DNA of 64,000 bases from Bacteroidetes bacterium RIFCSPLOWO2_12_FULL_35_15 (GCA_001769385.1 MEPB01000006.1:24182-88181); one strand, 5' to 3'. Shown: positions 44,112 to 64,000, numbered from the stretch's first letter. Numbers and translations are program-made. Notes: generated from the sequence alone by a model not told the origin.

Positions 44112-46259
44112 ATGCGCTACAAACTAGGAATTGATATTGGCGGTACGTTCACAGATCTAATTTTAGTCTCTGATGAAGGAACAACCACCATCCACAAAAC
44201 ACTTTCTACCCCTCTTGATCCCTCTATTGGATTTATTAATGGTATCAGCGAACTGGCTGAAATGATAAAGTTGCCTTTCGGGAAATTTATTAATTCCATT
44301 GATACCATTGTTCATGGAACCACAGTAGCAACTAATGCTTTGCTTACTTTAAGAGGAGCAAAAACAGCACTTGTTACCACCAAAGGTTTTCGTGATGCAT
44401 TGGAAATGAGAAGAGGAATTCGTGAAGAACAATATAATAATCATTATAAAAATGTAACACCGCTTGCGCCTCGCTATTTACGATTTACTATTGATGAACG
44501 TATTGATGCCGAAGGAAAAGTGTTGAATAAATTTGATGAAAAAGAACTTCTCTCCATCATTAAAAAAATAAAAGAAGAAAAGGTAGAGTCTGTTGCCATT
44601 TGTTTTTTGAATTCATTTAAAAATGATATCCATGAACGTAAAGCAGTCAGGTTTTTAAGAAAAGCATTGCCAGGAATCTTTGTAACTGCTTCATTCGAAG
44701 TATTGCCATCCATTCGTTTTTATGAGCGTGTGAGTACAACTGTTGTTAGCGCATTTGTTGGACCGATCGTTGCAAATTATTTTGATAAACTTACACAAAA
44801 GTTAAAAGGCATTGATTTCAAAGGACAATTACTGATCATGCAATCAAACGGTGGAGTGGTAACACCGGATGTTGTGAAGAAAACACCAGCAGTTACTGTT
44901 CTTTCAGGACCTGCAGCAGCACCAACCGCAGGAGCATTTTATTCTGCTTTGTTAGGATATAAAAATTGCATCACGGTGGATATGGGTGGGACGAGCTTTG
45001 ATGCTGCTCTGGTAATTGAAAACCAAAGTGTAACCAGTACCGAAGGAAGTATTAATCGCTATCGCATTGCATTGCCATCATTGGATATTATTACAATTGG
45101 TGCCGGTGGAGGAAGTATTGGCTGGATAGATAGTGGAGGTCTTTTACAAATGGGACCTCAAAGTGCTGGCGCATTGCCTGGTCCGGCTTGTTACGATAGA
45201 GGAGGGGAACTTCCTTCCTGTACAGATGCTGATCTGGTTCTTGGATACCTGAATCCTGATTTTTTTGCGGGAGGGAAATTAAAATTAGATAAAGCAAAAG
45301 CTGTAAAAGCGATCAAAGAGGAACTTGCTGCTAAACTTGGTTTAACGGTTGAAGAAGCTGCCGCAGGAATGTATCGTATCATCAATAGCAACATGGCGCA
45401 AGGTGTTCGTCAGGTTTCAGTAGAGAGAGGTTATGATCCACGCGAATTCTTGTTTATTGTTGCCGGTGGTGCAGGATCCATACATTCTTCTGAAATATGT
45501 AAAGAATTAGAAATCTCCATGTTCCTTGTTCCGAATGTGTCTTCTATTTTTTGTGCAGCAGGGATGTTGCTGGGTGATCTGAAACATGATTATATCCGTT
45601 CGTATTTCACTTCTTTCAATAATATTAATAAAAATAAATTCCTTACACTATTTAATGAAATGAAAGAAGAGGGTATGAAAACATTGATTGAAGAAGGAAT
45701 TAAAAAGAATAAGATCGAGTTTTATCCTGTGTTGGATATGCGTTATCTGGGGCAATATCACGAAGTGCAATTACAAGCTGATTGGAAAGATGTTACCAAC
45801 TTTAAATTGGATAATATTTTTGAAACGTTCCATAAAGAACATAACCGGCAGTTTGGTTATTCCTTGAAAGAGGAAGGAACTGAAATGGAACTTATCAATG
45901 TGAGATTGAGAGTGATCGGACAAAATGAAAAACCAAAATTTTTATCGGGAAATAATAATTCTGTTTCTGCAGAATCTGCGATCAAAGAAAATCGTGATGT
46001 GTATATTCCTGAGTTGAATAAATACAAAAAAATTCCTGTTTATGATGGTGATAAAGCTATATATGGTGCACAAATAAAAGGTCCTTGCATCATTGAAAAA
46101 ATTACCACTTCAATTTTTGTTAGTGAGAATTACGATTGTATTGTAGATAATTTTGGATCGATCATCGTGTATGAAAAGGGAATGATTACAGAGATTTCTA
46201 AGAAGATTTCAACGATTAAATTGAATAAAACAGAAAAAGAATCAGCAATTAAAAATTAA
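44112..46259 (+). CDS. hyuA: Hydantoinase/oxoprolinase family protein, A subunit.
   Basis: N-terminal MRYKLGIDIGGTFTDL; 715 aa. Confidence 0.85.
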   Translation: MRYKLGIDIGGTFTDLILVSDEGTTTIHKTLSTPLDPSIGFINGISELAEMIKLPFGKFINSIDTIVHGTTVATNALLTLRGAKTALVTTKGFRDALEMRRGIREEQYNNHYKNVTPLAPRYLRFTIDERIDAEGKVLNKFDEKELLSIIKKIKEEKVESVAICFLNSFKNDIHERKAVRFLRKALPGIFVTASFEVLPSIRFYERVSTTVVSAFVGPIVANYFDKLTQKLKGIDFKGQLLIMQSNGGVVTPDVVKKTPAVTVLSGPAAAPTAGAFYSALLGYKNCITVDMGGTSFDAALVIENQSVTSTEGSINRYRIALPSLDIITIGAGGGSIGWIDSGGLLQMGPQSAGALPGPACYDRGGELPSCTDADLVLGYLNPDFFAGGKLKLDKAKAVKAIKEELAAKLGLTVEEAAAGMYRIINSNMAQGVRQVSVERGYDPREFLFIVAGGAGSIHSSEICKELEISMFLVPNVSSIFCAAGMLLGDLKHDYIRSYFTSFNNINKNKFLTLFNEMKEEGMKTLIEEGIKKNKIEFYPVLDMRYLGQYHEVQLQADWKDVTNFKLDNIFETFHKEHNRQFGYSLKEEGTEMELINVRLRVIGQNEKPKFLSGNNNSVSAESAIKENRDVYIPELNKYKKIPVYDGDKAIYGAQIKGPCIIEKITTSIFVSENYDCIVDNFGSIIVYEKGMITEISKKISTIKLNKTEKESAIKN

Positions 46260-46679: not shown

Positions 46680-48350
46680 ATGAAAGTAGATAAAATATTA
46701 ATTTCCATTTTCCAGCGTTCCTTCAAATCCATTACAGATGAGATGAGTATTTCGCTGACTAAAACTACACGATCTCCAATTCTTTGTGAAGCGAAGGATT
46801 TTGTAACGGGTCTGTATGATGCAAAAGGACAGATGTTAGAGCAAACAGAGAATCTTCCGATCCTGTCTTTTTCTTTGGGGCCTGTTTGTAAACATCTTTT
46901 AGAAGTATATGGAAAAGAAATTTATCCCGGTGATGTGATTATTCACAATGATGTATTCACCATGGGAAATCAGAATAATGATGTGGCCATTTTCAAACCA
47001 ATATTTTTGGGAGAAACATTAATTGGTTGGTCTGCTGCAAAAGGGCATCAGGCCGATATTGGGGGGGCAGTTCAAGGTGGTTATAATCCAAATGCAACTG
47101 AAGTTTGGCAGGAAGCAATTCGTATTCCGGCAACCAAATTGTACGACAGAGGCAAACTTCGTAAAGATGTTTGGAATCTGATCTTTGCAAACATTCGTTT
47201 GAATATTGTGGAACAGGATATCAAAGCACAGATCGGTGCTTGTACGCTTGGAGAAAGGCGTTTTCAGGCTTTTGTGGAGAAATACGGATTAGAATGTTTT
47301 GAACTGCACAAGCAAGAGTTGTTCAATGCAACTGAAAAAATGATGCGTCAGGAAATAAAAGAAATTCCAAATGGAGTTTATTTTGGCGAAAGTATGGTGT
47401 ATTACGATGGAAAACATCCCGGAAGTAAATTCCCTATTAAGGCAAAAATAACGGTGAAGAATGAGGACATTGAATTTGATTTTTCAAAATCATCACCTCA
47501 AACAACAGGCTTTGTAAATGGAATTTATACATCAACCTGTTCTGCAATAACACTTACTTTCCTTCAAATGGTGAATCCAAATATTCCGCACAACGAAGGA
47601 ATGATCAAGCCTTTAAAATATATTGTACCGGAAGGTACAATTTTGAATGCCCGATATCCGGCCGCAACAACTTTTGGAAATCATTTATGTCCGCAAGTGG
47701 CTGATAGTATTTTTAAAGCATTGTCAAAAGCGGTTCCTACACGTATCACAGCGGGTTGGAATCATTTGCTTTGTTCATTGTTCACAGGAAATCATCCGCG
47801 AACAAATCGCAAATACGTGGACATCTGTTTCCTGGGAATGAAAGGTGGATCAGGTGCAATGTTAGGGGATGACGGGTATGATCACATTGGAATGATAGAT
47901 GCATCGGGTGGTGTGCTTGATCAGGATTATGAAATGTATGAGCAGCAAACTCCGCATTTAATAATGAAACATGAATATCTCTGCGATTCGGCAGGAGCAG
48001 GCAAATGGCGAGGTGGATTGGGAACAGAAACTATAATTAAAGTGGGAGCTAACAATACGAAAATGGTAGTGTTTGGTGATGGTGATGTGGTTCCTGCTTA
48101 TGGATTAAAAGGTGGTAAAGAAAGTATCTTGAATATTCTTGAATTGCGTTACCCGAATGGAAAAAAGAAAAGACCATACAGCAAAGATATTGTGGACGAT
48201 ATTCCTTCCGGAACTATTTATTATCAAGTTGCCGGTGGTGGCGGAGGTTACGGAAATCCAAAAGAAAGAGGAAAAGAGCAAGTGAAGATGGATGTGAAAA
48301 ATGGAATTGTTTCTAAGAAAGTTGCTGAGAAAGTTTATGGAGTAAAATGA
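46680..48350 (+). CDS. hyuB: Hydantoinase B/oxoprolinase family protein.
   Basis: 556 aa, paired with hyuA, with conserved Gly-rich segments (DGYDHIGMIDASGG...). Confidence 0.8.
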   Translation: MKVDKILISIFQRSFKSITDEMSISLTKTTRSPILCEAKDFVTGLYDAKGQMLEQTENLPILSFSLGPVCKHLLEVYGKEIYPGDVIIHNDVFTMGNQNNDVAIFKPIFLGETLIGWSAAKGHQADIGGAVQGGYNPNATEVWQEAIRIPATKLYDRGKLRKDVWNLIFANIRLNIVEQDIKAQIGACTLGERRFQAFVEKYGLECFELHKQELFNATEKMMRQEIKEIPNGVYFGESMVYYDGKHPGSKFPIKAKITVKNEDIEFDFSKSSPQTTGFVNGIYTSTCSAITLTFLQMVNPNIPHNEGMIKPLKYIVPEGTILNARYPAATTFGNHLCPQVADSIFKALSKAVPTRITAGWNHLLCSLFTGNHPRTNRKYVDICFLGMKGGSGAMLGDDGYDHIGMIDASGGVLDQDYEMYEQQTPHLIMKHEYLCDSAGAGKWRGGLGTETIIKVGANNTKMVVFGDGDVVPAYGLKGGKESILNILELRYPNGKKKRPYSKDIVDDIPSGTIYYQVAGGGGGYGNPKERGKEQVKMDVKNGIVSKKVAEKVYGVK

Positions 48351-48351
48351 A

Positions 48352-48603: not shown

Positions 48604-49014
48604 ATGCAGCATACCACAATTTTACCGGATGGTTGGCCAACACCAAAAGGATATTCCAATGGAATACTTGCAGCAAAAGGCAGAGTACTTTTTTTAGCTG
48701 GTCAGGTAGGTTGGACCCCTGAAGAAAAATTCGCAAGCGATAAACTGATCCCACAGTTTGAACAAGCATTAAAAAATATTGTTGCTATTGTAAAACAAGC
48801 AGGTGGAAAACCGGAAGATATTTGCAAGATGACTTGTTTCTGCAAAGACAGAGCACAATATTTAGAAAGCAGAAGAGAGTTAGGAGCTATCTGGAAAAAT
48901 ATCATGGGAAAACATTATCCCTGCATGAGTATGATTTTCGTGGTGGATTTGTTGGATCATCCTGCATTAATCGAGATTGAAGCTACAGCAGTTATTCCTA
49001 CTAATAACGAATAA
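48604..49014 (+). CDS. RidA/YjgF/TdcF-family protein.
   Basis: 136 aa, YjgF-like. Its stop codon lies within a TACGAAT-type repeat (aacgaaTAAacgaattacgaATG). Confidence 0.7.
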   Translation: MQHTTILPDGWPTPKGYSNGILAAKGRVLFLAGQVGWTPEEKFASDKLIPQFEQALKNIVAIVKQAGGKPEDICKMTCFCKDRAQYLESRRELGAIWKNIMGKHYPCMSMIFVVDLLDHPALIEIEATAVIPTNNE

Positions 49015-49025
49015 ACGAATTACGA

Positions 49026-49439
49026 ATGAGAGTTGTGTTAAAAAAAGAAAATTTGTTATATCCTGAACTATCTTTTCAGGTTGTAGGAGTTTTATTTGAA
49101 GTAAGTAATACATTAGGATATGGCTATCTGGAAAAATATTATCAAAAAGCAATTGCAGCATTACTTAAAAAATCAAATATAAATTTTAAGGAACAGGTTA
49201 AAGTTGAAGTAATAATTGGAGATGAAATTATAGCAGAAGGTCGTGCGGATTTCATAATTGATGAAAAAATTATTTTGGAAATTAAAAAAGGTGATTCATT
49301 CCGGAAAGATAATATTGATCAATTGCACAGTTATTTAAAAATGACCGGAATGGAGCTTGGCATCCTTGCGAATTTTACATCAAAAGGATTACTTTATAAA
49401 AGAATCGTAAATATTCGTAATTCACAAATTCGTAATTAG
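49026..49439 (+). CDS. GxxExxY-family protein.
   Basis: GYGYLEKYY motif; its C-terminal residues and stop are encoded by the ATTCGTAA repeat. Confidence 0.7.
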   Translation: MRVVLKKENLLYPELSFQVVGVLFEVSNTLGYGYLEKYYQKAIAALLKKSNINFKEQVKVEVIIGDEIIAEGRADFIIDEKIILEIKKGDSFRKDNIDQLHSYLKMTGMELGILANFTSKGLLYKRIVNIRNSQIRN

Positions 49440-49546
49440 TAGAACGATGGACTTAAATATTCGTAATTAGTAAATTCGTAATTAGTAGAACGATGGACTT
49501 AAATATTCGTAATTAGTAAATTCGTAATTAGTAGAACGATGGACTT
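49409..49546 (+). repeat. 3 x 46-bp tandem repeat built from ATTCGTAATTAGTA units. Each copy ends in ...agaacgATGGACTT, and the third copy supplies the start codon of the acyl-CoA dehydrogenase.
   Basis: Copies at 49409-49454, 49455-49500 and 49501-49546. Copies 2 and 3 are identical and copy 1 differs at 3 positions. Copies 1 and 2 encode only the mini-ORF MDLNIRN*. Confidence 0.8.
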
Positions 49547-50669
49547 TGAATTAAACGAAATACAAAAACAAATTCAACAAACTTTTCGAGACTTTACCGA
49601 TAGGAGAGTAAAACCTGTTGCTGGTAAATTAGATGAAGAAAAAAAGTTTCCTCACCAGCTTTTTAAAGAAGCCGGGGATCTGGGATTTTTTGGGATGCGT
49701 TATCCTGAAAGTGCAGGAGGAAGCGGATTGGATATTGTTTCCTACTCATTAGCTGTAATTGAAATGGCAAGAGGATCCTTGTCGCTGGCTGCTGTTTGTA
49801 CCATGCAATCATTAATGGGAACCTACTTTCTTTATCGTTTTGGTAATAAAGAGATCATTGAAAATTATTTTGATGAAGCCCTGAAAGGTAATAAAATTGG
49901 TGGTATTTGCATGACGGAGCCTAATGCAGGTTCCGATTTAATGGCAATTAAAACACTTGCAAAAGTTACTGATGATGGCTTTATTCTTAGCGGACAAAAG
50001 ACCTGGATCACATCAGCTCCGGTTGCTGATTTTTTTACGGTGCTTGCACGAACCGATAATCATGAAAAACTCTCCATATTTTTTGTGCCTGCTGATTTGA
50101 AAGGAGTGATTGTTGGAAAAAGTATTGAGAAAATGGGTGTGCGAGCTTCCGTAACCAGTGAAGTAGCTTTTGTTGATGTTCAGCTCCCGAAAAAATATTT
50201 GCTTGGCGAAATTGGTGGAGGAACAAAATGCCTTATTGAAATTCTTGCCGAGATCCGGATCATGACCGCTGCTCTTGCTATCGGAGTTGCAACAGCAGCT
50301 TATGAAGATGCTTTGAAATATGCCAATGAGCGTTCACAATTTGGAAAACCAATTGGGAAATTTCAGGCTGTACAAATGAAATTTGCGGACATGGCAGTGA
50401 AACTGGAAACATCCAAACATTATGTGATGTATGCAGCAAGCTTAAGTGATAAAAATCTCCCGCGTCAGAAAGAAGCAATGATAGCAAAGCTCTATGCTTC
50501 GGAATGTGCAGTAAATATATGTGATGAAGCATCCCGTGTACTTGCTTCTTATGGTTACGCAGTTGAATATAATGTAGAAAGGTATTTACGGGATTCTCGT
50601 TTTACGTTGATTGGTGGGGGAACCTCAGAAATATTAAAAATAAATATTGCAAAAGAATTAGGACTATGA
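49539..50669 (+). CDS. Acyl-CoA dehydrogenase.
   Basis: ACAD fold motifs: CMTEPNAGSDL, a C-terminal RYLRDSRFTLIGGGTSEI, and catalytic Glu context. Confidence 0.85.
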   Translation: MDFELNEIQKQIQQTFRDFTDRRVKPVAGKLDEEKKFPHQLFKEAGDLGFFGMRYPESAGGSGLDIVSYSLAVIEMARGSLSLAAVCTMQSLMGTYFLYRFGNKEIIENYFDEALKGNKIGGICMTEPNAGSDLMAIKTLAKVTDDGFILSGQKTWITSAPVADFFTVLARTDNHEKLSIFFVPADLKGVIVGKSIEKMGVRASVTSEVAFVDVQLPKKYLLGEIGGGTKCLIEILAEIRIMTAALAIGVATAAYEDALKYANERSQFGKPIGKFQAVQMKFADMAVKLETSKHYVMYAASLSDKNLPRQKEAMIAKLYASECAVNICDEASRVLASYGYAVEYNVERYLRDSRFTLIGGGTSEILKINIAKELGL

Positions 50670-53640: not shown

Positions 53641-54024
53641 ATGAAAGTACTACTTAGCAAACCCGGACTTGATGGTCATGATGTAGGAGTGAAAGTATTG
53701 GCTCACGGATTAATTGATGCAGGATTTCAGGTTGTTTATACCGGACTCCGGAAAACAATTGAAGAGATCGTTGATATAGCTGTAAAAAACAAAGTGGACA
53801 TTATAGGTATGTCGATACTCTCCGGGACACATTTAGTTCTTGCGCAAAGAATGAAAGAAGTTCTTGCGGAAAGAAAACTTAATATTCCATGGTTTGTCGG
53901 AGGAAATATTCCTGCAAAAGATATTGAAAAATTGAAAAAGCTGGGAGCACACAATGCATTCGCTACCGGGAGTAAAGTGGCAGATGTGGTTAATTATTTT
54001 AATTCGATAAAAGTAAAAGCATGA
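53641..54024 (+). CDS. Cobalamin-binding small subunit of an acyl-CoA (methylmalonyl-CoA-type) mutase.
   Basis: DxHxxG B12-binding motif (LDGHDVG); 127 aa. Its stop overlaps the start of the large subunit. Confidence 0.85.
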   Translation: MKVLLSKPGLDGHDVGVKVLAHGLIDAGFQVVYTGLRKTIEEIVDIAVKNKVDIIGMSILSGTHLVLAQRMKEVLAERKLNIPWFVGGNIPAKDIEKLKKLGAHNAFATGSKVADVVNYFNSIKVKA

Positions 54025-57052: not shown

Positions 57053-60000
57053 ATGCAAAAACAGACCATTGACATATTAACTTCTTTCAGTAAAGCACAA
57101 AAACGTTGTGTTATGGGAAATGTTGCTGTTGCTCGTGGAGCGATTGAAGCAGGAGTGAATGGTGTATTCTCCTATCCGGGAACACCTTCCACAGAAATTT
57201 CAGAAGTATTTAATTTTGTCAATGATTTTCAAAGTAAAAAAGATTTTCAAAAAAAATATCCTAAACAAACCGAACATAAAATTTATTTTGAATACAGCAT
57301 CAATGAAAAAATTGCATTAGAAAAAGCAATTGCTTATTCCATAGGAAATAAAAGTGCCATGTGTGTGATGAAAAATGTGGGGATGAATGTGGCCTCGGAT
57401 GCTTTGATGAGCGTTACCTATCAAACAATTATTGCTCCTTTGGTTATTGTTCTTTGCGATGATCCGGGCTGTTTTTCTAGTTCAAACGAACAGGATTCTC
57501 GCTATTGGGGAAAATTTGCTTCTGTCCCAATGTTTAATCCGGCATCTCCGGAAGATGCATTATTAATGACAAAAACAGCTTTCTCGCTTTCTGCTCAATT
57601 ACGATTACCGGTTATTGTTCGTATGACTACTCGTGTAGATCATTCTCGCGGAGTGATTTCGTATGGTAATTTTGATCCGAAAGAAACAATTGCTCATTTT
57701 GATAGATTACCTCAACATATTAATATTCCTGCACGTACAGCAACCGCTCATAAAACATTACTAGATAAACTAGATTCGGAACTTTTTGTTATACTGAATA
57801 AAAAGTTCAATACTGTTTTTCCATCTGTTAAAACCGGGAAGGAGCAAATGGGAATTATTGCGAGTGGTGTTTCTTTGGTGTATGCTCAGGAATTGTTATC
57901 AAGAAACAGCGAAACAAAAAATATTTCTGTTCTAAAAGTTGGTGTGATTCATCCTTTCCCTGAAAAAGATATTTTAACGTTTTTAAAGAAAGGAATTAAA
58001 AGAGTTTTAATTCTTGAAGAACTGGATCCACTCCTTGAAAATGATGTTCGAGTGATCATTCAAAAAAATAAAATTGATTGCGAAGTTATTGGGAAAGGAT
58101 ATTCAGGATTAAATGTTACGGGTGAATATACGTTGGATATTATTAGAAATGTTCTTGAAAAATTTACATCTTATTCTTTATGCAAAAAAGAAAATCAACC
58201 ATTACCTGATGTCGATAAACTCCTTGCCAGTTTACCGCCTCGTCCGCCAACACTTTGTGCAGGATGTCCTCATCGGGCAACATTCTATGCACTTAAATTA
58301 GCTGTCCCTCGGGAGAATGGAAATATTATTTTGTGTGGAGACATCGGCTGTTCAGGATTGGGAGCATTACCTCCAATTCAAATGATCGATACGATCAACC
58401 ACATGGGAATGAGTGTATCGATGGCACAAGGACTTTCGGAGGCAATGCATTTGAAACCAGAACAAGGGAAAGTTATAGCGATGCTGGGTGATGGAACATT
58501 TTTTCATTCCGGTGTGGCATCTTTGATCAATGCAATTTATACACGTGCAAATATTACGGTTATTATTTTTGATAACAGAACTATTGGAATGACGGGCCAT
58601 CAGGATCATCCCGGTGCCACTCAACATTCAAAATATCAACAGATTGATATTTATTCGTTGGTAAAAGGATTGGGAGTGGAATGTGTTGAAACCATGATGC
58701 CTTTTAATTTGAAGGATACTTATGAGAAAGTAAAAAATGCAATTAACCATATAGGGGTTTCTGTTTTAATTGCAAGGGCTCCTTGTATTTTCCTTCCTGA
58801 ATTTAAAGATGGGGCACTCGTTAGAAAGAGTTTGCATGTTGACCAAAGCAAATGCAATACCTGTTTTAATCATTGCGATGTAAGTATTTCATGTTCAAAA
58901 GAATATTCGGGGAAAGAAAGTCTTGATCGCGCAAGAGCAAAAGTTGTTGCAAAAGTACAGGTGTATGCCCAGGAACAATTATGCCCGGCAAACATTTGTA
59001 ATCACGGATTTTTTAATTCTATCCTAAGTAAAAATTATAAATCAGCTTTAGAAATTGTTAGGGATAAAATGTTGTTTGCCGCTGTATGTGGGGATGTTTG
59101 CCATAAACCGTGTGAATCGTTGTTCAGAACTGAGAATGGGAAATCTGTTCCGATAAAAAAATTAAAAAACTTTGTTAGCAACATTGAAGATAATTTCAAT
59201 GATTTTTCGAAACAAATTTCACGAGCAAAAGTTTCAAATAAGAAGAATAAAAAGATTGCTGTTATCGGTTCAGGTCCTGCAGGGTTAAGTTCCGCATATG
59301 ATCTTGTTCAGGCAGGATATGATGTAACTGTTTTTGAGAAGAACGCTTCCGCTGGGGGAATGATCCGTTTTGTTATTCCTGATTTCAGGATGAACAAAAA
59401 TAATATGGACAAGGAAATGAATGTGCTGAAGGAAATGGGTGTTCGTTTTAAATTTAATTCAATTCTTGGAAAAAATATTACGATAGAAAAACTTTCAAGC
59501 GATTACGATGCGGTTATTCTGGCAATAGGAATGTGGGATTCAGCGACATTAGAGATTGTTGAAAAAAATGTTTCTATTGGCAAAAAGTTTGACGCGATCA
59601 ATTTCTTACGTTCCTACAATGAAAAGAATCTTAAAATAAAATCAGGTTCAACAATATTTATTGTTGGTGGTGGAAATAGTGCCATGGATGCTGCAAGAGC
59701 TGCAAAAAAATTCAACAAAAAAAATAATGTAATAGTTTCTTGCATTGAAAAGACAGATTCAATGCCGGCATTTGTGCAGGAAGTAGAAGAAGCAAAAAGG
59801 GAAGGCATCCGCATTATTGATGGTTGTTTTGCAGATTTGATCGTTGAAAAAAAGAATAAAATATCGATCTCATTAAAATCGTTTGATAAGAAGAAATATC
59901 TTGAAACTATAAAAGCTGATTATATAATTACAGCAATTGGCCAACGTGGCGATGCATCTGCATTAAATGAAAAATTAAGCCTGGATACAAATTTCAGAGT

Positions 60001-60415
60001 TAAGTCTGCAAGCAAGTACAAAAATGTTTTTTTTGCTGGTGATATTGCTTCAGGTAATCATATTTCTTTGATTGGTGCTATTGGCAGTGGAAAGAAAGCT
60101 GCAGTGAATGCAAGAAAGTTATTGGAAGGATATAAGTTTGAATACGAAGGAGAGTTTGCTTTAGATAAGTTGTCGAATTCTGAGAATGGAAATAAAAATA
60201 TACTTAAGAAATTTGAAACCATAGATTTTGAAATTGAAAATGTTCATGACTTTAATTTATATCAACCTTGCGCCAAGTGTGATCATTGTATCGAAAATTT
60301 TGGTTGTCCGGCTATGGTAAAAGTGAATGGAAAAATAATAATTGATGATAAACGCTGTACCCGTTGTGGTTTGTGTATAGATGTTTGTCCGAATGGAGCT
60401 ATTGATTGGGTTTAA
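57053..60415 (+). CDS. iorA: Indolepyruvate/2-oxoacid:ferredoxin oxidoreductase alpha subunit fused to a GltD-like FAD/NAD(P)-binding domain and a C-terminal 4Fe-4S ferredoxin.
   Basis: IorA motifs (CAGCPHRATFYALK and a TPP-binding region) within residues ~1-650. Then KKIAVIGSGPAGLSSAYDL...VGGGNSAMDAARAA (glutamate synthase small-chain-like), ending in CTRCGLCIDVCPNGAI. Confidence 0.7.
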   Translation: MQKQTIDILTSFSKAQKRCVMGNVAVARGAIEAGVNGVFSYPGTPSTEISEVFNFVNDFQSKKDFQKKYPKQTEHKIYFEYSINEKIALEKAIAYSIGNKSAMCVMKNVGMNVASDALMSVTYQTIIAPLVIVLCDDPGCFSSSNEQDSRYWGKFASVPMFNPASPEDALLMTKTAFSLSAQLRLPVIVRMTTRVDHSRGVISYGNFDPKETIAHFDRLPQHINIPARTATAHKTLLDKLDSELFVILNKKFNTVFPSVKTGKEQMGIIASGVSLVYAQELLSRNSETKNISVLKVGVIHPFPEKDILTFLKKGIKRVLILEELDPLLENDVRVIIQKNKIDCEVIGKGYSGLNVTGEYTLDIIRNVLEKFTSYSLCKKENQPLPDVDKLLASLPPRPPTLCAGCPHRATFYALKLAVPRENGNIILCGDIGCSGLGALPPIQMIDTINHMGMSVSMAQGLSEAMHLKPEQGKVIAMLGDGTFFHSGVASLINAIYTRANITVIIFDNRTIGMTGHQDHPGATQHSKYQQIDIYSLVKGLGVECVETMMPFNLKDTYEKVKNAINHIGVSVLIARAPCIFLPEFKDGALVRKSLHVDQSKCNTCFNHCDVSISCSKEYSGKESLDRARAKVVAKVQVYAQEQLCPANICNHGFFNSILSKNYKSALEIVRDKMLFAAVCGDVCHKPCESLFRTENGKSVPIKKLKNFVSNIEDNFNDFSKQISRAKVSNKKNKKIAVIGSGPAGLSSAYDLVQAGYDVTVFEKNASAGGMIRFVIPDFRMNKNNMDKEMNVLKEMGVRFKFNSILGKNITIEKLSSDYDAVILAIGMWDSATLEIVEKNVSIGKKFDAINFLRSYNEKNLKIKSGSTIFIVGGGNSAMDAARAAKKFNKKNNVIVSCIEKTDSMPAFVQEVEEAKREGIRIIDGCFADLIVEKKNKISISLKSFDKKKYLETIKADYIITAIGQRGDASALNEKLSLDTNFRVKSASKYKNVFFAGDIASGNHISLIGAIGSGKKAAVNARKLLEGYKFEYEGEFALDKLSNSENGNKNILKKFETIDFEIENVHDFNLYQPCAKCDHCIENFGCPAMVKVNGKIIIDDKRCTRCGLCIDVCPNGAIDWV

Positions 60416-60595: not shown

Positions 60596-61189
60596 ATGAC
60601 AAAAAAAAGTAAAATTATTATTGCCGGTGTAGGAGGACAAGGAGTTGTTTTTCTTACCGAAATTCTTGTAGATGCAGCTATTCGTGCCGGAATAAATGCT
60701 GCAACAAGTGAAATTCACGGACTTTCACAACGTGGTGGTTCTGTAGTAGCAGGAGTGACATTCGGAGAAAATACATTTGGATTTGTTGAAAATGCTGCAG
60801 CGGATTTTTTACTTGGATTGGAATTGTTGGAAGCACAACGTGCATTAAATTATTTACATTGCAATAGCATTGCAATTGTTGACAATACAAAGATACTTCC
60901 TCATTCTGTAAATGCCAAAAAAGGAGTTTATCCTGATACTGAAAAGTTTATCAGTTATTTGAAAAAAAATATCAAAGGAACTATTTTTATTGAGGAAGAA
61001 TTTTTAGGTTTGACACCTGTGATGCGTAATTTAGTTGTCTTGGGAAAAGCGGCATCAGTAAAAAGTTTTCCGGTAAAATCGAAATTTATTGAAGAAGCAA
61101 TTAAAAATAATACCAGAGGTGATGCTGAAAAATCACTTAAGGTTTTTAGGGAAGCATTGAATAGTGTAAACAAAATTAAAGCAGTTTAA
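60596..61189 (+). CDS. iorB: Indolepyruvate oxidoreductase beta subunit (2-oxoacid:ferredoxin oxidoreductase gamma-type).
   Basis: 197 aa, N-terminal IIIAGVGGQGVVFLTEIL. Confidence 0.75.
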   Translation: MTKKSKIIIAGVGGQGVVFLTEILVDAAIRAGINAATSEIHGLSQRGGSVVAGVTFGENTFGFVENAAADFLLGLELLEAQRALNYLHCNSIAIVDNTKILPHSVNAKKGVYPDTEKFISYLKKNIKGTIFIEEEFLGLTPVMRNLVVLGKAASVKSFPVKSKFIEEAIKNNTRGDAEKSLKVFREALNSVNKIKAV

Positions 61190-61347: not shown

Positions 61348-61854
61348 ATGAGTAAAAAGAAAAAATTAGTTGTTCAGAATGTGGAAGTAACTTTTATTTT
61401 GAATGGAAAAAAGGTTACAAAACAAATTCGCCCTTCTCTGTTATTGATTGATTTTATTCGGGACGAATTATCTCTGGCTGGTACTAAACCTGGCTGTTTA
61501 GAAGGTGAATGTGGTGCTTGTTCTGTATTGATTGATGGTGCAGCAGTAAATTCATGTATGTATCTGGCAATAAATATTCATGGTAAAAATCTAACGACTA
61601 TTGAAGGATTATCTGATGTTAATGGCTTGGATCCGGTTCAGGATTCTATGATAAAACATGGCGCTGTGCAGTGTGGATTCTGTTCTTCCGGTATGACAAT
61701 GAGCATTAAATCGATGCAGATCAAATATAAAAAAGATAAAAAGAAGCCATCAAAAGAGGAGATAAAAAAAGGTTTGGAAGGGAACTTATGCAGATGTACC
61801 GGATATGTGAAAATTATTGAAGCAGCAGAAGCAGTGATAAATAAGGTTAAATAG
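61348..61854 (+). CDS. (2Fe-2S)-binding small subunit of a xanthine dehydrogenase/CO dehydrogenase-family molybdoenzyme.
   Basis: GCLEGECGACSV, CGFCSSGM and LCRCTGY motifs. Confidence 0.85.
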   Translation: MSKKKKLVVQNVEVTFILNGKKVTKQIRPSLLLIDFIRDELSLAGTKPGCLEGECGACSVLIDGAAVNSCMYLAINIHGKNLTTIEGLSDVNGLDPVQDSMIKHGAVQCGFCSSGMTMSIKSMQIKYKKDKKKPSKEEIKKGLEGNLCRCTGYVKIIEAAEAVINKVK

Positions 61855-61898: not shown

Positions 61899-64000
61899 AT
61901 GAGTAAAAAATTAAATGTAATTGGAACACCAATACCGAAGATAGATGCAGGTATTCGTATCACGGGAAAAGCGGTTTATGGTCAGGATGTAAAACTACCG
62001 GGAATGCTTCATGGTGCTATTCTTCGTGCTGAGTATCCATGCGCGGAATTTACAATTGATGTTTCTGCTGCAAGAAAATTGCCCGGAGTTATTGCTGTTA
62101 TTACAGCGGATGATATTGATTGCAATAACATTAGCTATAAAAAGGATCATCCGATATTAAAAAAAGGAGAAGTAAATTGTATTCGTGATGAAATAGCAGC
62201 TGTTGCCGCTGAAAGTAAAGAGATCGCTGAAAGAGCCATTAAACTTATCAAAGTAAAGTACAAAGAAAAGAAAGGGATTTATGATCCTTTCGATGCATTA
62301 AAGCCTAATGCTCCTCTTGTAAATAAATATTTGAAGGATAGTAAATTCGCGAAAAACATTTCTGATATTTTCTTCTACGAACATGGAAATCTGGAAGAAC
62401 AAAAAAAGAAAAGCGCTGTTATTATCAGCAAACGTTTCGTATTACCTCGCGTAACACATTGTTGTATGGCAACAAGCAACATCACCGCTGATTATTCCTC
62501 TGTCACCAAACGCTTAACATTATATAGTTCAACACAAGTTCCGTTTTTATATCAACGCGACATGGCACATGCTTTGAAAATGAATGCCTCCGATATTCGT
62601 GTTATTCAAGTGGTGATCGGTGGCGGATTTGGAAGTAAATTAGATATGTATCCTTTTGAACCAATTGCTGCTATTCTTTCTATAAAAACAGGAAAGCCTG
62701 TTCAGATAATTTTTGACCGTGAAGAGGAATTTATTGCTTCACCTACGAGGCAGAATATGGTGATTGACTTAATAGCAGGGGCTGATAAAAATGGGAAATT
62801 CACTTTTCGTGATGTTACTATTGTAAAAGATAATGGTGCATTCACTTCCTGGGGCGCAACCACTCCTTTTGTAATGATGCAGACTTTTTCATCACTCTAT
62901 CAAATGCCTGCTTGTCGGTTTGAATCAAAAGCCGTTTATACAAATAATATTTCAGCAGGTTCTTTCCGTGGTTATGGGAATCCACAAGCTGCTTTCGCTA
63001 TCGAAAGTTGTATTGATCTGATGGCCGATAAATTAGGAATGGATAAAGCAGAAATTCGTTTGCTTAATGCAAATTATGCAGGTGAAATAACAGGACAAGG
63101 AATGCACTACGACACTTGCGGACATATAGAAGCCTTGAAAACCGTTATTGAAAAATCGGATTTACGAAATACAAATAAAGAAACTTTACGAAATACTAAT
63201 AAATACGAATCTACGAATAAAGAAAAAGAAACAGTCAACACAGATTCGTATATTCGAAAAAATCCGTATTTCGTAGATAATGTAGATAGATATAAGCGGG
63301 GAGTGGGAATTGCTTCGATGATGCATGTTGGGGGTGGTGCTAAAATTTATCGATCAGATGGTTGCGGAACTACCTTAAAATTGGATGATTACGGACATCT
63401 GACTTTAATTACAGGCTCGAGCGAGATCGGTCAGGGCTCCGAAACTGTTTTGGCAATGATGGCTTCAGAGGAACTTACAATTCCAATGAATAAAATAAAA
63501 GTTATTAATACGGATACGGATGTAAAGCCTTGGGATGTTGGGGTGCATGCATCCCGTACCAGTTTTGTAGCAGGGAATTCGGTGTTAGGTGCTGTTAAAA
63601 AATTAAAAGAAAAATTAAATCAAAAAGCTGCTGTACTTTTAAAATGTACGATTGAGAATTTGATCTATGAAAATGAAGAAATAAAAAATAGTGACGGAAG
63701 TAATTCTGTTCGAATAGAAAAAGTGGTTCGTGAAATGCATTTTGGAGGACAAAATGAGCTGTGTACGGTAAACCATTTTTATGAACCAACAAGTGATTTT
63801 CAGGATAAACAGTTCAAAGGAAATGTTTCAGGTACTTATGCATTTGCTGCGCAGTCAGCTGAAGTGGAAGTGGATACCTATACCGGAAATATTAAGGTAT
63901 TAAATATTCATGTTGCACAAGATGTGGGTAAAGTATTGAATCCACTAAACATCATGGGACAAATTGAAGGAGGTGTTTTGACTGGAGTGGGTTATGGAAT
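61899..64000 (+). CDS. Molybdopterin-binding large subunit of a xanthine dehydrogenase/aldehyde oxidase-family enzyme (3' end beyond the window). It contains an in-frame TACGAAT-repeat insertion.
   Basis: The product begins MSKKLNVIGTPIPKIDAGIRITGKAVYGQDVKLPGMLHGAILRAEYP. Typical MoCo-enzyme segments: RGYGNPQA, GSSEIGQG and VHASRTSFVAG. There is no stop through 64000. Confidence 0.85.
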   Translation, partial: MSKKLNVIGTPIPKIDAGIRITGKAVYGQDVKLPGMLHGAILRAEYPCAEFTIDVSAARKLPGVIAVITADDIDCNNISYKKDHPILKKGEVNCIRDEIAAVAAESKEIAERAIKLIKVKYKEKKGIYDPFDALKPNAPLVNKYLKDSKFAKNISDIFFYEHGNLEEQKKKSAVIISKRFVLPRVTHCCMATSNITADYSSVTKRLTLYSSTQVPFLYQRDMAHALKMNASDIRVIQVVIGGGFGSKLDMYPFEPIAAILSIKTGKPVQIIFDREEEFIASPTRQNMVIDLIAGADKNGKFTFRDVTIVKDNGAFTSWGATTPFVMMQTFSSLYQMPACRFESKAVYTNNISAGSFRGYGNPQAAFAIESCIDLMADKLGMDKAEIRLLNANYAGEITGQGMHYDTCGHIEALKTVIEKSDLRNTNKETLRNTNKYESTNKEKETVNTDSYIRKNPYFVDNVDRYKRGVGIASMMHVGGGAKIYRSDGCGTTLKLDDYGHLTLITGSSEIGQGSETVLAMMASEELTIPMNKIKVINTDTDVKPWDVGVHASRTSFVAGNSVLGAVKKLKEKLNQKAAVLLKCTIENLIYENEEIKNSDGSNSVRIEKVVREMHFGGQNELCTVNHFYEPTSDFQDKQFKGNVSGTYAFAAQSAEVEVDTYTGNIKVLNIHVAQDVGKVLNPLNIMGQIEGGVLTGVGYG
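63162..63275 (+). repeat. Intragenic TACGAAT/ATTCGTA heptamer array, in frame.
   Basis: gatttacgaaatacaaataaagaaactttacgaaatactaataaatacgaatctacgaataaag...cagattcgtatattcgaaaaaatccgtatttcgtag. It translates in the gene frame as ...SDLRNTNKETLRNTNKYESTNKEKETVNTDSYIRKNPYFVDNV... Confidence 0.7.

What the first reader, a model, noticed from the sequence alone, without database searches (positions are those of the whole stretch)
44112..64000. Composite catabolic island: hydantoinase A/B, RidA, ACAD, DUF35-HMGCS-like and SCP-x thiolase, B12 acyl-CoA mutase, CoA-transferase, IOR, and a Mo-hydroxylase
This gene set suggests a multi-step pathway. The Mo-hydroxylase would hydroxylate a ring, the ATP-dependent hydantoinase/oxoprolinase would open or carboxylate it, and a reactive enamine/imine would be handled by RidA. 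The IOR would oxidise a 2-oxoacid to an acyl-CoA, and the B12 mutase would rearrange the carbon skeleton. The ACAD and the DUF35/thiolase pair would then do beta-oxidation-like cleavage, with the CoA-transferase cycling CoA. The combination is not a textbook operon. It is reminiscent of nicotinate or purine fermentation chemistry, but in an apparently aerobic T9SS-bearing Bacteroidota.
Basis: inference. Interest (0 to 1): 0.5.

Follow-up and report, generated by a model that had tools for sequence, protein, structure and literature searches.

The report
Oxygen-independent tryptophan/auxin breakdown gene cluster
This is the Bacteroidota version of the known "iaa" gene cluster, which breaks down the plant hormone indoleacetate without oxygen; here it appears to start from tryptophan, so it is a variant of a described pathway and not a new one.

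Summary
The gene list is real. All genes lie on the + strand from 44112 to the window end and continue about 3.4 kb further.

It is not an unexplained composite. Nine proteins are full-length orthologues (35-66% identity) of the iaa cluster of Aromatoleum evansii, which degrades indoleacetate anaerobically to 2-aminobenzoyl-CoA:
- hydantoinase-like lactamase IaaC/E
- decarboxylating benzylmalonyl-CoA dehydrogenase IaaF
- B12 mutase IaaG/H
- CoA-transferase IaaL
- a three-subunit Mo-hydroxylase

Diagnostic residues fit. The ACAD has GGG in place of YEG. The mutase keeps the carboxylate-binding Tyr/Arg and carries a Gly run shared with A. evansii IaaH. The ACAD-mutase-hydantoinase core is syntenic in Bacteroidota, Alphaproteobacteria, Betaproteobacteria and Desulfobacterota.

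Differences from the canonical cluster:
- There is no CoA ligase, binding protein or regulator. An IOR (alpha subunit fused to a GltD-like NAD(P) flavoprotein) and a HisC-family aminotransferase stand in their place, which suggests entry from tryptophan via indolepyruvate.
- An SCP2-type thiolase with an inactive PhlA/HMGCS-like-DUF35 fusion replaces the classical thiolase.
- A conserved Rid-family protein lacks the RidA catalytic Arg.
- No hydratase/dehydrogenase is encoded here.

Verdict: new variant of a known kind, moderate interest.

The parts
44112..46259 (+). HydA: alpha subunit of an ATP-dependent hydantoinase-like lactamase (IaaC orthologue, predicted 2-oxoindoleacetyl-CoA gamma-lactamase)
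   Evidence: Pfam Hydant_A_N/Hydantoinase_A/Hydant_A_C. Caprolactamase alpha model 699 bits, below the 1000 cutoff. 52% identity over 692 aa to A. evansii IaaC position. IaaCE function from PMC8453981 and PMC5214803.
46259..46649 (+). Decayed (frame-broken) GxxExxY/PDDEXK_3 gene in the HydA-HydB spacer; not part of the pathway
   Evidence: Two short ORFs in different frames carry the N-terminal GPGFLEKIY motif and the C-terminal LINFG-type end. Relatives have HydA and HydB adjacent or overlapping.
46680..48350 (+). HydB: beta subunit of the lactamase (IaaE orthologue)
   Evidence: Pfam Hydantoinase_B 469 bits. 63% identity over 553 aa to A. evansii.
48604..49014 (+). Rid/YjgF-family protein, not a canonical RidA; conserved accessory of Bacteroidota iaa-like clusters, function unknown
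   Evidence: Pfam Ribonuc_L-PSP. TIGR00004 53 bits against a cutoff of 106. Met aligns with the catalytic Arg of YabJ. 78-88% identical in L005, L117 and L118, always between HydB and the ACAD. Absent from A. evansii L115.
49026..49439 (+). Intact GxxExxY / PD-(D/E)XK_3 small gene, an inserted passenger
   Evidence: TIGR04256 100 bits, PF13366. Absent at this position in L005.
49408..49546 (.). Three tandem 46-nt copies, each containing the ACAD start ATGGACTT; part of a genome-specific TACGAAT-rich repeat filling the cluster's spacers
   Evidence: D1; 38 matches against 9.0 expected, 30 of them in 47-64 kb. Absent from relatives.
49539..50669 (+). IaaF-type acyl-CoA dehydrogenase (decarboxylating (2-amino)benzylmalonyl-CoA dehydrogenase)
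   Evidence: The C-terminal motif is IGGGTSEI instead of YEG; the signature is defined in PMC8360864. 59% identity over 375 aa to an A. evansii protein whose close relatives UniRef names benzylmalonyl-CoA dehydrogenase. It falls in the GGG clade of an 89-sequence NJ tree.
50838..52238 (+). PhlA/HMGCS-like domain (no nucleophilic Cys) fused to a DUF35 Zn-ribbon/OB domain; probable non-catalytic partner of the thiolase
   Evidence: Pfam zf-ChsH2 and OB_ChsH2_C. Best PDB matches are PhlA, archaeal HMGCS 6esq_I, DUF35 6esq_E and BbsA 7pxp. Ala aligns with the HMGCS Cys, where PhlA has Gly.
52334..53506 (+). SCP2-type thiolase, predicted to cleave 2-aminobenzoylacetyl-CoA
   Evidence: Thiolase_C_1 and Thiolase_N. 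PRK06157 416 bits against a cutoff of 403; BbsB model 204 bits. NFCASG, HDCF and GHP motifs are present.
53641..54024 (+). B12-binding small subunit of the mutase (IaaG orthologue)
   Evidence: PF02310, TIGR00640. 46% identity to A. evansii.
54021..55643 (+). Mutase large subunit (IaaH orthologue; (2-aminophenyl)succinyl-CoA to (2-aminobenzyl)malonyl-CoA)
   Evidence: PF01642 614 bits. 66% identity to A. evansii IaaH. Tyr89 and Arg207 (P. shermanii numbering) are kept, and HSQTSGWS is replaced by IAGGGGGG. The Gly run is shared with A. evansii, L005, L006, L009, L117 and L120, but not with ICM-type neighbours.
55715..56947 (+). Family III CoA-transferase (IaaL orthologue, phenylsuccinyl-CoA transferase)
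   Evidence: PF02515. 48% identity over 411 aa to the A. evansii gene at the IaaL position. IaaL function from PMC8360864.
56965..56997 (+). 15-bp-stem G+C-rich hairpin after the CoA-transferase gene; possible terminator or attenuator between two sub-operons
57053..60415 (+). IOR alpha (TPP) fused to a GltD-like FAD/NAD(P)-binding and Fe-S module
   Evidence: TIGR03336 589 bits (residues 17-615) and PRK12771 284 bits (598-1117). Pfam TPP_enzyme_C, Fer4_20, Pyr_redox_2, Fer4. The fusion is widespread in Bacteroidota.
60596..61189 (+). IOR beta subunit
   Evidence: PF01558; IOR beta models 116-130 bits, below cutoffs.
61348..61854 (+). 2Fe-2S subunit of the xanthine-dehydrogenase-family Mo-hydroxylase
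   Evidence: Fer2_2. 44% identity to A. evansii.
61899..64000 (+). Mo-cofactor large subunit (cut by the window end; 793 aa in full), with a 26-aa in-frame insertion at 63182-63278
   Evidence: Ald_Xan_dh_C, MoCoBD_1, MoCoBD_2. 49% identity over 803 aa to A. evansii. The insertion is seen in the alignment. Full length taken from L001.

Best explanation
The region is a Bacteroidota version of the iaa pathway, the oxygen-independent degradation of indole-3-acetate to 2-aminobenzoyl-CoA. It is joined to an aminotransferase/IOR entry module, so the likely substrate is tryptophan (or free indole-3-pyruvate).

Proposed sequence:
(1) The HisC-family aminotransferase, just beyond the window, converts Trp to indole-3-pyruvate. 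Inferred.
(2) IOR alpha-GltD plus IOR beta oxidatively decarboxylate it to indoleacetyl-CoA and pass electrons to NAD(P)+ through the fused flavoprotein. The family assignment is shown; the acceptor is inferred. This replaces the CoA ligase IaaB of Aromatoleum.
(3) The three-subunit Mo-hydroxylase hydroxylates C2 of the indole ring to give 2-oxoindoleacetyl-CoA. By orthology.
(4) HydAB (IaaCE type) opens the lactam using ATP, giving (2-aminophenyl)succinyl-CoA. By orthology.
(5) The IaaL-type CoA-transferase moves CoA to the other carboxyl group.
(6) The B12 mutase (IaaGH type) rearranges the product to (2-aminobenzyl)malonyl-CoA.
(7) The GGG-type ACAD (IaaF type) oxidises and decarboxylates it to 2-aminocinnamoyl-CoA.
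(8) Hydration and oxidation are done by enzymes not encoded here. Relatives carry a fused 3HCDH/ECH gene in the cluster.
(9) The SCP2-type thiolase, with the inactive PhlA-like/DUF35 partner, releases acetyl-CoA and 2-aminobenzoyl-CoA.

The role of the Rid-family protein is unknown.
For: Orthology of nine proteins to the A. evansii locus L115. That locus encodes CoA ligase, HydA, HydB, ACAD, B12 subunit, mutase, Mo FAD/2Fe-2S/large subunits, CoA-transferase and a binding protein. Identities are HydA 52%, HydB 63%, ACAD 59%, MutS 46%, MutL 66%, CoAT 48%, Mo-S 44%, Mo-L 49% and Mo-FAD 35%, all near full length.

A. evansii (as Azoarcus evansii) is a strain in which the pathway was described (PMC8453981). 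Close relatives of its ACAD are named benzylmalonyl-CoA dehydrogenase by UniRef.

Published signature: the IaaF subclass has GGG in place of YEG and always lies in iaa operons (PMC8360864). The window ACAD reads IGGGTSEI. In a tree of 89 ACADs, all GGG sequences but one (L049) form one clade with the window. Six of the eight loci in that clade have mutase and/or hydantoinase neighbours.

The Deltaproteobacteria locus L008 has an ETF pair beside the ACAD, as the paper reports for sulfate reducers.

Mutase signature: Tyr/Arg kept, plus a Gly run shared with A. evansii IaaH.

The same gene order from HydA to Mo-S occurs in the Flavobacteriales MAG L005.

Entry module: IOR alpha-GltD, IOR beta and the aminotransferase form a stand-alone three-gene unit in Panacibacter ginsenosidivorans (63/56/55% identity). 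In the close relative L120 they again bracket the Mo genes. Another Bacteroidota locus carries a different two-subunit 2-oxoacid oxidoreductase inside the cluster. No CoA ligase is found in the window or in the next 10 kb.
Against: No enzyme of this organism, or of any Bacteroidota version, has been assayed. In Aromatoleum the Mo-hydroxylase and lactamase steps are, as far as I could read, assigned from induced proteins and not from purified enzymes.

The hydratase/dehydrogenase needed for step 8 is missing from the window and from the 10 kb downstream.

No ETF or other acceptor for the ACAD is encoded.

The aminotransferase passes the hisC equivalog cutoff (296.5 against 276.55), so it could simply be the histidine-biosynthesis enzyme.

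The IOR/aminotransferase unit also exists on its own, so its adjacency here could reflect a separate function.

IOR alpha and beta score below the NCBIfam equivalog cutoffs, so substrate preference among arylpyruvates is open.

The fate of 2-aminobenzoyl-CoA is unknown. A strong hairpin after the CoA-transferase gene may split the cluster into two transcripts.
Confidence: 0.75

Rival explanations
1. The cluster degrades exogenous indole-3-acetate (auxin), exactly as in Aromatoleum. The IOR/aminotransferase genes are an adjacent but independent aromatic-amino-acid module. Activation would be by CoA transfer or by a ligase encoded elsewhere.
For: The IOR alpha-GltD/IOR beta/aminotransferase unit stands alone in Panacibacter. 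A 15-bp hairpin separates the CoA-transferase gene from IOR alpha. IaaL is reported to have intermolecular CoA-transferase activity as well (PMC8360864). L117 and L118 have a core without IOR within 10 kb.
Against: There is no CoA ligase, binding protein or transporter in the window or downstream. The Mo-hydroxylase genes lie between IOR beta and the aminotransferase in two genomes. A different 2-oxoacid oxidoreductase is recruited into the cluster in another lineage. IaaL's reported intermolecular partners are phenylsuccinate and succinate, not indoleacetate.
Confidence: 0.15
2. The same enzyme logic acts on a different substrate, for example another oxindole or N-heterocyclic arylacetate, or substituted indoles such as 5-hydroxyindole derivatives. 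The match to iaa would then be paralogy and not shared function.
For: Identities to Aromatoleum are 35-66%, not near-identity. Accessory genes differ: the Rid protein, the PhlA-like/DUF35 fusion and the CysK-like gene. IOR enzymes accept several arylpyruvates (my own knowledge).
Against: The subclass signatures are retained: GGG in the ACAD, and Tyr/Arg plus the Gly run in the mutase. All nine core components are present together. The ACAD clade is monophyletic in the sample and always iaa-linked according to the literature.
Confidence: 0.07
3. One reading: a new composite pathway with nicotinate/purine-fermentation-like chemistry, assembled as an island.
For: The Mo-hydroxylase plus B12 mutase combination also occurs in nicotinate fermentation (my own knowledge). 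Best NCBIfam names are generic: caprolactamase, 4-hydroxybenzoyl-CoA reductase and xanthine dehydrogenase, all below cutoff.
Against: Each core gene has an orthologue in the iaa cluster in the same local order. G+C content is uniform with the flanks. Synteny is conserved across phyla.
Confidence: 0.03

Closest known systems
[quoted passage not shown] 2012; Schuhle et al. 2016, 2021)
   Same: Nine orthologous proteins: IaaC, IaaE, IaaF, IaaG, IaaH, IaaL and three Mo-enzyme subunits. The local order HydA-HydB-ACAD-(...)-MutS-MutL is the same. The IaaF GGG motif and the mutase Tyr/Arg plus Gly-run signature are shared.
   Different: No CoA ligase IaaB, binding protein IaaM or GntR-type regulator. 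An IOR (alpha fused to a GltD-like module) and an aminotransferase take their place. An SCP2-type thiolase with a PhlA-like/DUF35 partner replaces the classical thiolase. A Rid-family protein is added. No 3HCDH/ECH gene lies nearby. The CoA-transferase sits before the Mo genes instead of after them. Passenger genes and repeats occupy the spacers.
iaa-like operons of strict anaerobes (Desulfatiglans anilini, other sulfate reducers, Ferroglobus placidus) with a dedicated ETF
   Same: GGG-type ACAD next to the mutase, CoA-transferase and hydantoinase genes (L007-L009). Tryptophan degradation involving IOR has been proposed for F. placidus (Aklujkar et al. 2014, cited in PMC6737245; the details are from my memory because the paper is not in the library).
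   Different: ACAD identity is only about 46%, the motif is YGGGTHE, and an ETF alpha/beta pair and a GntR regulator are present. The window has no ETF.
PhlACB acyltransferase of Pseudomonas and the archaeal thiolase/HMG-CoA synthase/DUF35 complex (PDB 5m3k, 6esq); BbsAB benzoylsuccinyl-CoA thiolase (7pxp)
   Same: The three-part architecture of SCP2-type thiolase, HMGCS-fold protein and DUF35 Zn-ribbon/OB protein. As in PhlA, the HMGCS-fold part lacks the nucleophilic Cys. BbsAB shows that DUF35 plus an SCP2-type thiolase can cleave an aromatic 3-oxoacyl-CoA.
   Different: Here the HMGCS-fold and DUF35 parts are fused in one 466-aa chain. Sequence similarity is low (43-47 bits). No complex or activity has been shown.
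Caprolactamase CapAB and 5-oxoprolinase/hydantoinase family
   Same: The same two-subunit ATP-dependent lactam hydrolase family, with full-length matches. PMC8453981 lists IaaCE as a homologue.
   Different: Scores are below the caprolactamase equivalog cutoffs (699 and 394 against 1000). The proteins are closer to IaaCE (52% and 63%) than the 36-37% reported between CapAB and IaaCE.
Methylmalonyl-CoA, isobutyryl-CoA and 2-hydroxyisobutyryl-CoA mutases
   Same: The same fold and split small/large subunit organisation as HCM/ICM. Tyr89, Arg207 and His244 are as in MCM.
   Different: The MCM segment HSQTSGWS is replaced by IAGGGGGG. The ICM signature (Phe/Gln) and the HCM signature (Ile/Gln) are absent.

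Membership tests
iaa (anaerobic indoleacetate degradation) cluster | IaaF-subclass ACAD: GGG replaces the YEG active-site motif | tested here: met
   IGGGTSEI at the C-terminus. The criterion is from PMC8360864.
iaa (anaerobic indoleacetate degradation) cluster | The ACAD groups with Aromatoleum IaaF and not with other ACAD subclasses | tested here: met
   59% identity over 375 aa to A. evansii P0382. It falls in the GGG clade of an 89-sequence NJ tree. The nearest 50%-cluster representatives are GGG-type. The tree is a quick distance tree on a non-exhaustive sample.
iaa (anaerobic indoleacetate degradation) cluster | Two-subunit hydantoinase-like lactamase (IaaC/IaaE) directly upstream of the ACAD | tested here: met
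   52% and 63% identity to the A. evansii genes, in the same order.
iaa (anaerobic indoleacetate degradation) cluster | Split B12 mutase IaaG/IaaH for an aryl-substituted succinyl-/malonyl-CoA | tested here: met
   46% and 66% identity. Tyr/Arg retained and the Gly run shared with A. evansii IaaH. Activity not testable here.
iaa (anaerobic indoleacetate degradation) cluster | Family III CoA-transferase IaaL | tested here: met
   48% identity over 411 aa.
iaa (anaerobic indoleacetate degradation) cluster | Three-subunit xanthine-dehydrogenase-family Mo enzyme | tested here: met
   Mo-S 44%, Mo-L 49%, Mo-FAD 35%. The FAD subunit and the end of Mo-L lie outside the window.
iaa (anaerobic indoleacetate degradation) cluster | Indoleacetate-CoA ligase IaaB, binding protein IaaM and cluster regulators | tested here: not met
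   tblastn with the A. evansii ligase and binding protein finds nothing in the window or in L001. No regulator family is found among the cluster ORFs.
iaa (anaerobic indoleacetate degradation) cluster | Beta-oxidation hydratase/dehydrogenase for 2-aminocinnamoyl-CoA in or near the cluster | tested here: not met
   Absent from the window and the 10 kb downstream. Present in relatives L005, the P0116 locus, L117 and L118, and upstream in A. evansii.
iaa (anaerobic indoleacetate degradation) cluster | Induction by indoleacetate and conversion to 2-aminobenzoyl-CoA | not testable with these tools
   The organism is an uncultured MAG.
RidA enamine/imine deaminase | Catalytic Arg (Arg105 of E. coli/Salmonella RidA) and a score above the TIGR00004 cutoff | tested here: not met
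   Met aligns with the Arg of B. subtilis YabJ. 53 bits against a cutoff of 106. That this Arg is essential is my own knowledge.
HMG-CoA synthase | Nucleophilic Cys of the condensing-enzyme active site | tested here: not met
   Ala aligns with the Cys of archaeal HMGCS 6esq_I. HMGCS models score 52-91 bits against cutoffs of 244-353.
Methylmalonyl-CoA mutase proper | Equivalog-level score and the MCM active-site segment | tested here: not met
   PRK09426 509 bits against a cutoff of 876. HSQTSGWS is replaced by a Gly run.
Isobutyryl-CoA / 2-hydroxyisobutyryl-CoA mutase | Phe or Ile at MCM Tyr89 and Gln at Arg207 | tested here: not met
   Tyr and Arg are present. The highest PDB score, to HcmA, reflects the split-subunit family and not the specificity residues.
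Indolepyruvate:ferredoxin oxidoreductase | Equivalog-level match of the alpha and beta subunits | tested here: inconclusive
   Alpha 589 bits against a cutoff of 651, beta 116-130 against 205-238. The family assignment is clear; substrate and acceptor are not. The alpha subunit carries an extra GltD-like module.
4-hydroxybenzoyl-CoA reductase / xanthine dehydrogenase | Equivalog-level score | tested here: not met
   441 against 995 and 409 against 780 bits (on the 700 residues available).

The most novel reading that the evidence does not exclude
Abundant uncultured soil and groundwater Bacteroidota carry a self-contained, oxygen-independent tryptophan-to-anthraniloyl-CoA pathway. It differs mechanistically from the Aromatoleum prototype at three points:
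- an NAD(P)-linked IOR fusion makes indoleacetyl-CoA directly, with no ATP-consuming ligase;
- a fused inactive-HMGCS/DUF35 scaffold with an SCP2-type thiolase does the final cleavage;
- an Arg-less Rid-family protein performs a pathway step not yet assigned, for example handling the 2-hydroxyindole/oxindole tautomers or an amino-aryl intermediate.

If true, these bacteria would be unrecognised sinks for tryptophan and auxin in low-oxygen habitats.
Probability: 0.4. Interest if true: 0.55.

Novelty: new variant of a known kind. Interest (0 to 1): 0.38.

Why it matters
The iaa pathway has been studied in denitrifying Betaproteobacteria and inferred in sulfate reducers and one archaeon. I found no paper in the searchable library that reports it in Bacteroidota.

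Close homologues of the signature ACAD are very common in metagenomes. At least 120 distinct 90%-identity clusters have 76% identity or more to the window protein; where a source names them they are mostly Bacteroidota (one carries a Competibacteraceae label). If the assignment holds, Bacteroidota could be major anaerobic or microoxic consumers of tryptophan and auxin in soil, sediment and aquifers.

The variant also offers handles on open points of the pathway:
- what re-oxidises IaaF, since no ETF is encoded here;
- how indoleacetyl-CoA is formed without a ligase;
- what Rid-family and PhlA-like/DUF35 proteins do in aromatic acyl-CoA metabolism.

For annotation, the genes are currently named generically (acyl-CoA dehydrogenase, FAD-dependent oxidoreductase, hypothetical protein) and could be renamed.

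Tried and rejected
(1) Genome-contig scan with an alignment of GGG-type ACADs. Only 8 of the 80 loci were relevant and Aromatoleum was not returned.

(2) Metagenome scan with the published iaaF forward-primer sequence ATGGACTTCGATCTCACCGACG (from PMC8360864). It gave 32 loci, all ordinary ACADs sharing the N-terminus MDFDLTD, and none was IaaF.

(3) tblastn of the ACAD against plasmids returned only hits of about 40% identity or less in unrelated contexts.

(4) The original 2012 paper (PMC3370604) is not held. The gene-by-gene description of the cluster therefore comes from the A. evansii locus itself and from secondary papers.

(5) I considered the TACGAAT repeats as a conserved operator and rejected this. 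They are absent from the clusters of relatives L120 and L005.

(6) I considered HCM because it gives the highest PDB score and rejected it on the specificity residues.

(7) I considered a recent horizontally acquired island. There is no compositional break and no integrase in 40-64 kb, and synteny is shared with other Bacteroidota.

(8) The sigma-70 promoter scan is uninformative: 59 sites found against 73 expected, and Bacteroidota promoters differ.

Full report
OBSERVATION

All lie on the + strand between 44112 and the window end.

Three things were missed:
- IOR alpha is a 1120-aa fusion. Residues 17-615 match IOR alpha (TIGR03336, 589 bits). Residues 598-1117 match a GltD-like NAD(P)/FAD plus Fe-S module (PRK12771, 284 bits).
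- A small GxxExxY/PDDEXK_3 gene sits between the Rid gene and the ACAD (49026-49439). A frame-broken second copy fills the 420-nt HydA-HydB spacer.
- The cluster does not stop at the window end.

The ACAD is 100% identical to a protein of 'Bacteroidetes bacterium RIFCSPLOWO2_12_FULL_35_15'. The same contig continues with the rest of the Mo large subunit (793 aa), a CysK-like PLP enzyme, the FAD subunit of the Mo enzyme, a HisC-family aminotransferase and two unknown ORFs before the strand flips (L001). The unit therefore spans roughly window 44112 to 67370. G+C content is flat across the boundary.

WHAT IT IS

The gene set recalled the iaa cluster for anaerobic indoleacetate degradation, so I tested that.

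The literature gives a sequence criterion. IaaF, the decarboxylating benzylmalonyl-CoA dehydrogenase, and all members of its subclass carry GGG where other acyl-CoA dehydrogenases have YEG, and all are encoded in iaa operons (PMC8360864). The window ACAD ends ...RFTLIGGGTSEILK.

A search of 50%-identity representatives showed that its nearest single-domain relatives are GGG-type.

A scan of species-representative genomes returned only eight relevant loci, because the tool used a generic ACAD motif. Even so, in a distance tree of 89 ACADs, all GGG sequences but one (L049) form one clade with the window protein. Within that clade, six of the eight loci have mutase and/or hydantoinase genes beside the ACAD:
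- Sphingomonadales MAG L006: HydA-HydB-ACAD-MutS-MutL-Mo FAD-Mo 2Fe-2S-Mo large.
- Deltaproteobacteria MAG L008: CoA-transferase-ETF beta-ETF alpha-ACAD-GntR-MutS. This matches the published remark that strict anaerobes add a dedicated ETF.

Searching with the L006 ACAD retrieved proteins at 77-79% identity. Sources name them 'benzylmalonyl-CoA dehydrogenase [Aromatoleum sp.]', and the hits include proteins of Aromatoleum evansii and A. toluvorans.

The A. evansii chromosome locus (L115) reads: GntR regulator, thiolase, AMP-binding CoA ligase, HydA 708 aa, HydB 564 aa, ACAD 377 aa, B12-binding subunit 142 aa, mutase 537 aa, Mo FAD subunit, Mo 2Fe-2S subunit, Mo large subunit 802 aa, family III CoA-transferase, periplasmic binding protein.

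The window proteins match nine of these nearly end to end:

| Protein | Identity |
|---|---|
| HydA | 52% |
| HydB | 63% |
| ACAD | 59% |
| MutS | 46% |
| MutL | 66% |
| CoA-transferase | 48% |
| Mo 2Fe-2S | 44% |
| Mo large | 49% |
| Mo FAD | 35% |

Secondary literature identifies IaaCE as the hydantoinase-like, ATP-dependent 2-oxoindoleacetyl-CoA gamma-lactamase (PMC8453981, PMC5214803). It gives 2-aminobenzoyl-CoA as the end product of the iaa route (PMC12852158).

THE MUTASE

Aligned to solved structures, it keeps the Tyr of RQYAGF and the Arg of F(I/M)xR. These are Tyr89 and Arg207 in P. shermanii MCM, the carboxylate binders by my knowledge of that structure, and His244 is also kept. It therefore acts on a dicarboxylyl-CoA and is not ICM (Phe/Gln) or HCM (Ile/Gln).

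The MCM segment HSQTSGWS is replaced by IAGGGGGG. The same Gly run is present in A. evansii IaaH (MIAAGGGGG), L005, L006, L009, L117, L118 and L120. It is absent from ICM-type mutases that sit beside non-GGG ACADs. A run of glycines there would enlarge the pocket, which fits an aryl substituent. That last point is inference.

WHAT IS DIFFERENT FROM THE PROTOTYPE

(1) Entry module. No CoA ligase, binding protein or regulator is found by tblastn in the window or in the next 10 kb. IOR alpha-GltD, IOR beta and, after the Mo genes, a HisC-family aminotransferase are present instead.
- In the cultured Panacibacter ginsenosidivorans these three genes form a stand-alone unit (63%, 56% and 55% identity).
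- In the close relative L120 they again enclose the Mo genes.
- In a third Bacteroidota lineage a different two-subunit 2-oxoacid oxidoreductase is inserted next to the ACAD.

An arylpyruvate-to-arylacetyl-CoA step is therefore repeatedly recruited. It would deliver indoleacetyl-CoA, the first CoA-bound intermediate of the revised pathway, without a ligase.

(2) Thiolase. The thiolase is SCP2-type, with NFCASG, HDCF and GHP motifs. It is preceded by a fusion of an HMGCS/PhlA-fold domain with a DUF35 Zn-ribbon/OB domain. The best structural relatives by sequence are PhlA, the archaeal HMGCS and DUF35 proteins of the thiolase/HMGCS complex, and BbsA. The HMGCS nucleophilic Cys aligns with Ala here and with Gly in PhlA, so the domain is probably a scaffold.

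(3) Rid-family protein. It lies between HydB and the ACAD in the four Bacteroidota loci where that interval could be read (absent in L003) and is 78-88% identical among them. It is absent from A. evansii. Its function is open.

(4) Missing hydratase/dehydrogenase. The fused 3-hydroxyacyl-CoA dehydrogenase/enoyl-CoA hydratase lies directly upstream of HydA in L005 and the P0116 locus, inside the cluster in L117 and L118, and upstream in A. evansii. It is missing here. The pathway as encoded in this stretch is therefore incomplete.

MECHANISM

The best-supported reading is:
Trp -> indolepyruvate (aminotransferase) -> indoleacetyl-CoA (IOR, electrons to NAD(P)+ via the fused flavoprotein) -> 2-oxoindoleacetyl-CoA (Mo-hydroxylase) -> (2-aminophenyl)succinyl-CoA (ATP-dependent lactamase) -> CoA shift (IaaL type) -> (2-aminobenzyl)malonyl-CoA (B12 mutase) -> 2-aminocinnamoyl-CoA + CO2 (GGG ACAD) -> [hydratase/dehydrogenase encoded elsewhere] -> 2-aminobenzoyl-CoA + acetyl-CoA (thiolase complex).

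- Shown here: orthology, signatures and synteny.
- Taken from the literature: activities of IaaF, IaaL and IaaB in Aromatoleum, and the pathway scheme.
- Inferred: substrate identity in this organism, tryptophan entry, the NAD(P) acceptor, the thiolase substrate and co-transcription.

One caution concerns direction. IOR can also run reductively in methanogens to assimilate arylacetates (PMC6737245). A fused NAD(P)-type flavoprotein argues for the oxidative direction on thermodynamic grounds, which is my inference.

COMPARISON AND NOVELTY

The cluster passes six of the sequence-testable defining features of an iaa cluster. It fails those concerning the uptake/activation module and the nearby beta-oxidation genes (see the membership table).

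It works like, and is homologous to, the iaa pathway, but with a swapped entry module, a different thiolase system and an extra conserved protein. Tryptophan degradation via IOR and iaa-like genes has, to my memory, been proposed for Ferroglobus placidus (Aklujkar et al. 2014; not readable here), so the idea itself is not new.

I found no report of the pathway in Bacteroidota in the searchable library. Yet the ACAD has at least 120 distinct close homologue clusters, which are mostly Bacteroidota where a source names them.

I rate it a new variant of a known kind. A specialist would be interested but not astonished.

OTHER OBSERVATIONS

- The spacers of this copy of the cluster are unusually long and filled with a TACGAAT-rich repeat. 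There are 38 matches in the window against 9 expected, 30 of them in 47-64 kb. They include three tandem 46-nt copies that duplicate the ACAD start, and an in-frame 26-aa insertion in the Mo large subunit. Relatives lack the repeats.
- Small passenger genes (GxxExxY here, 23S_rRNA_IVP-family in a relative) occupy the same kinds of intergenic sites.
- The first ~32 kb of the window looks like a prophage. It carries a reverse transcriptase and nearby diverged repeats.

Noticed in passing
window 48350-53601 (intergenic spacers) and 63182-63278: The heptamer TACGAAT (either strand) occurs 38 times in the window against 9.0 +/- 3.0 expected. Thirty of the matches lie in 47-64 kb, almost all in spacers between cluster genes. 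Relatives L120 and L005 have the same genes tightly packed and lack the motif, so this is a genome-specific repeat expansion and not a conserved operator.
   Followed up: partly
window 49408-49546: Three tandem 46-nt copies, each containing the ribosome-binding region and the first codons (ATGGACTT) of the ACAD gene. Only the last copy continues into the full ORF.
   Followed up: partly
window 63182-63278 (inside the Mo large-subunit ORF): An in-frame 26-residue low-complexity insertion (…KYESTNKEKETVNTDSYIRKNPYFVD…) relative to the A. evansii and L006 orthologues. It coincides with TACGAAT repeat copies, so the repeat appears to have inserted into a coding sequence without breaking the frame.
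   Followed up: partly
window 46259-46649 and 49026-49439; P0116 locus: One decayed and one intact GxxExxY/PD-(D/E)XK_3 gene are inserted between pathway genes. A related Bacteroidota cluster has 23S_rRNA_IVP-family small genes at equivalent intergenic sites. This suggests that small selfish or passenger genes home into operon spacers.
   Followed up: partly
L001 13000-13875 (about window-equivalent 64347-65222, outside the window): A CysK/CysM-like PLP enzyme (308 bits, below the cysteine synthase cutoff of 344) is nested between the Mo large subunit and the FAD subunit genes. It is absent at that position in the close relative L120 and in A. evansii. Its role is unknown.
   Followed up: no
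window 56965-56997 and 61229-61307: A 15-bp-stem G+C-rich hairpin lies right after the CoA-transferase gene. A pair of GACCCCGAAGGGG(T/G)C hairpins lies between IOR beta and the Mo 2Fe-2S gene. These may be terminators, attenuators or REP-like elements.
   Followed up: no
window 1-32000 (all on the - strand): A prophage-like block: DUF2793 tail-fibre-like protein (2391-4961), DUF6712, S49 prohead-protease-like peptidase (19133-20452), HNH endonuclease (25028-25852), reverse transcriptase (26146-27309) and a 1016-aa primase-like protein (28257-31307).
   Followed up: partly
window 27211-27854: Three diverged copies (72-82% identity) of a 74-136-nt segment lie beside the reverse transcriptase. 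The last copy is inside the 3' end of ORF 27704-28189 (-). This is a candidate diversity-generating retroelement, although the substitutions did not look restricted to one base.
   Followed up: no
L120 5481-9878; L005 465-3529: Relatives carry BcrAD_BadFG-type ATPase genes in or next to the cluster: a 1465-aa BcrAD_BadFG/DUF2229 protein in L120, and HGD-D plus a BcrAD/ketopantoate-reductase-like fusion in L005. These may be dehydratase- or benzoyl-CoA-reductase-like enzymes acting on pathway products. They are absent from the window.
   Followed up: no
L009 about 10640 (mutase large subunit): The Deltaproteobacteria MAG mutase has an in-frame stop inside the conserved RQY motif (TIW*YTGF). This could be an assembly error, a pseudogene or recoding.
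   Followed up: no
window 34382-40633 (-) and 42384-44075 (+): A 2083-aa protein with a T9SS C-terminal sorting domain, and a 563-aa protein with only a C-terminal ion-channel domain, flank the cluster upstream. In relatives the 3HCDH/ECH gene occupies the position directly upstream of HydA.
   Followed up: no
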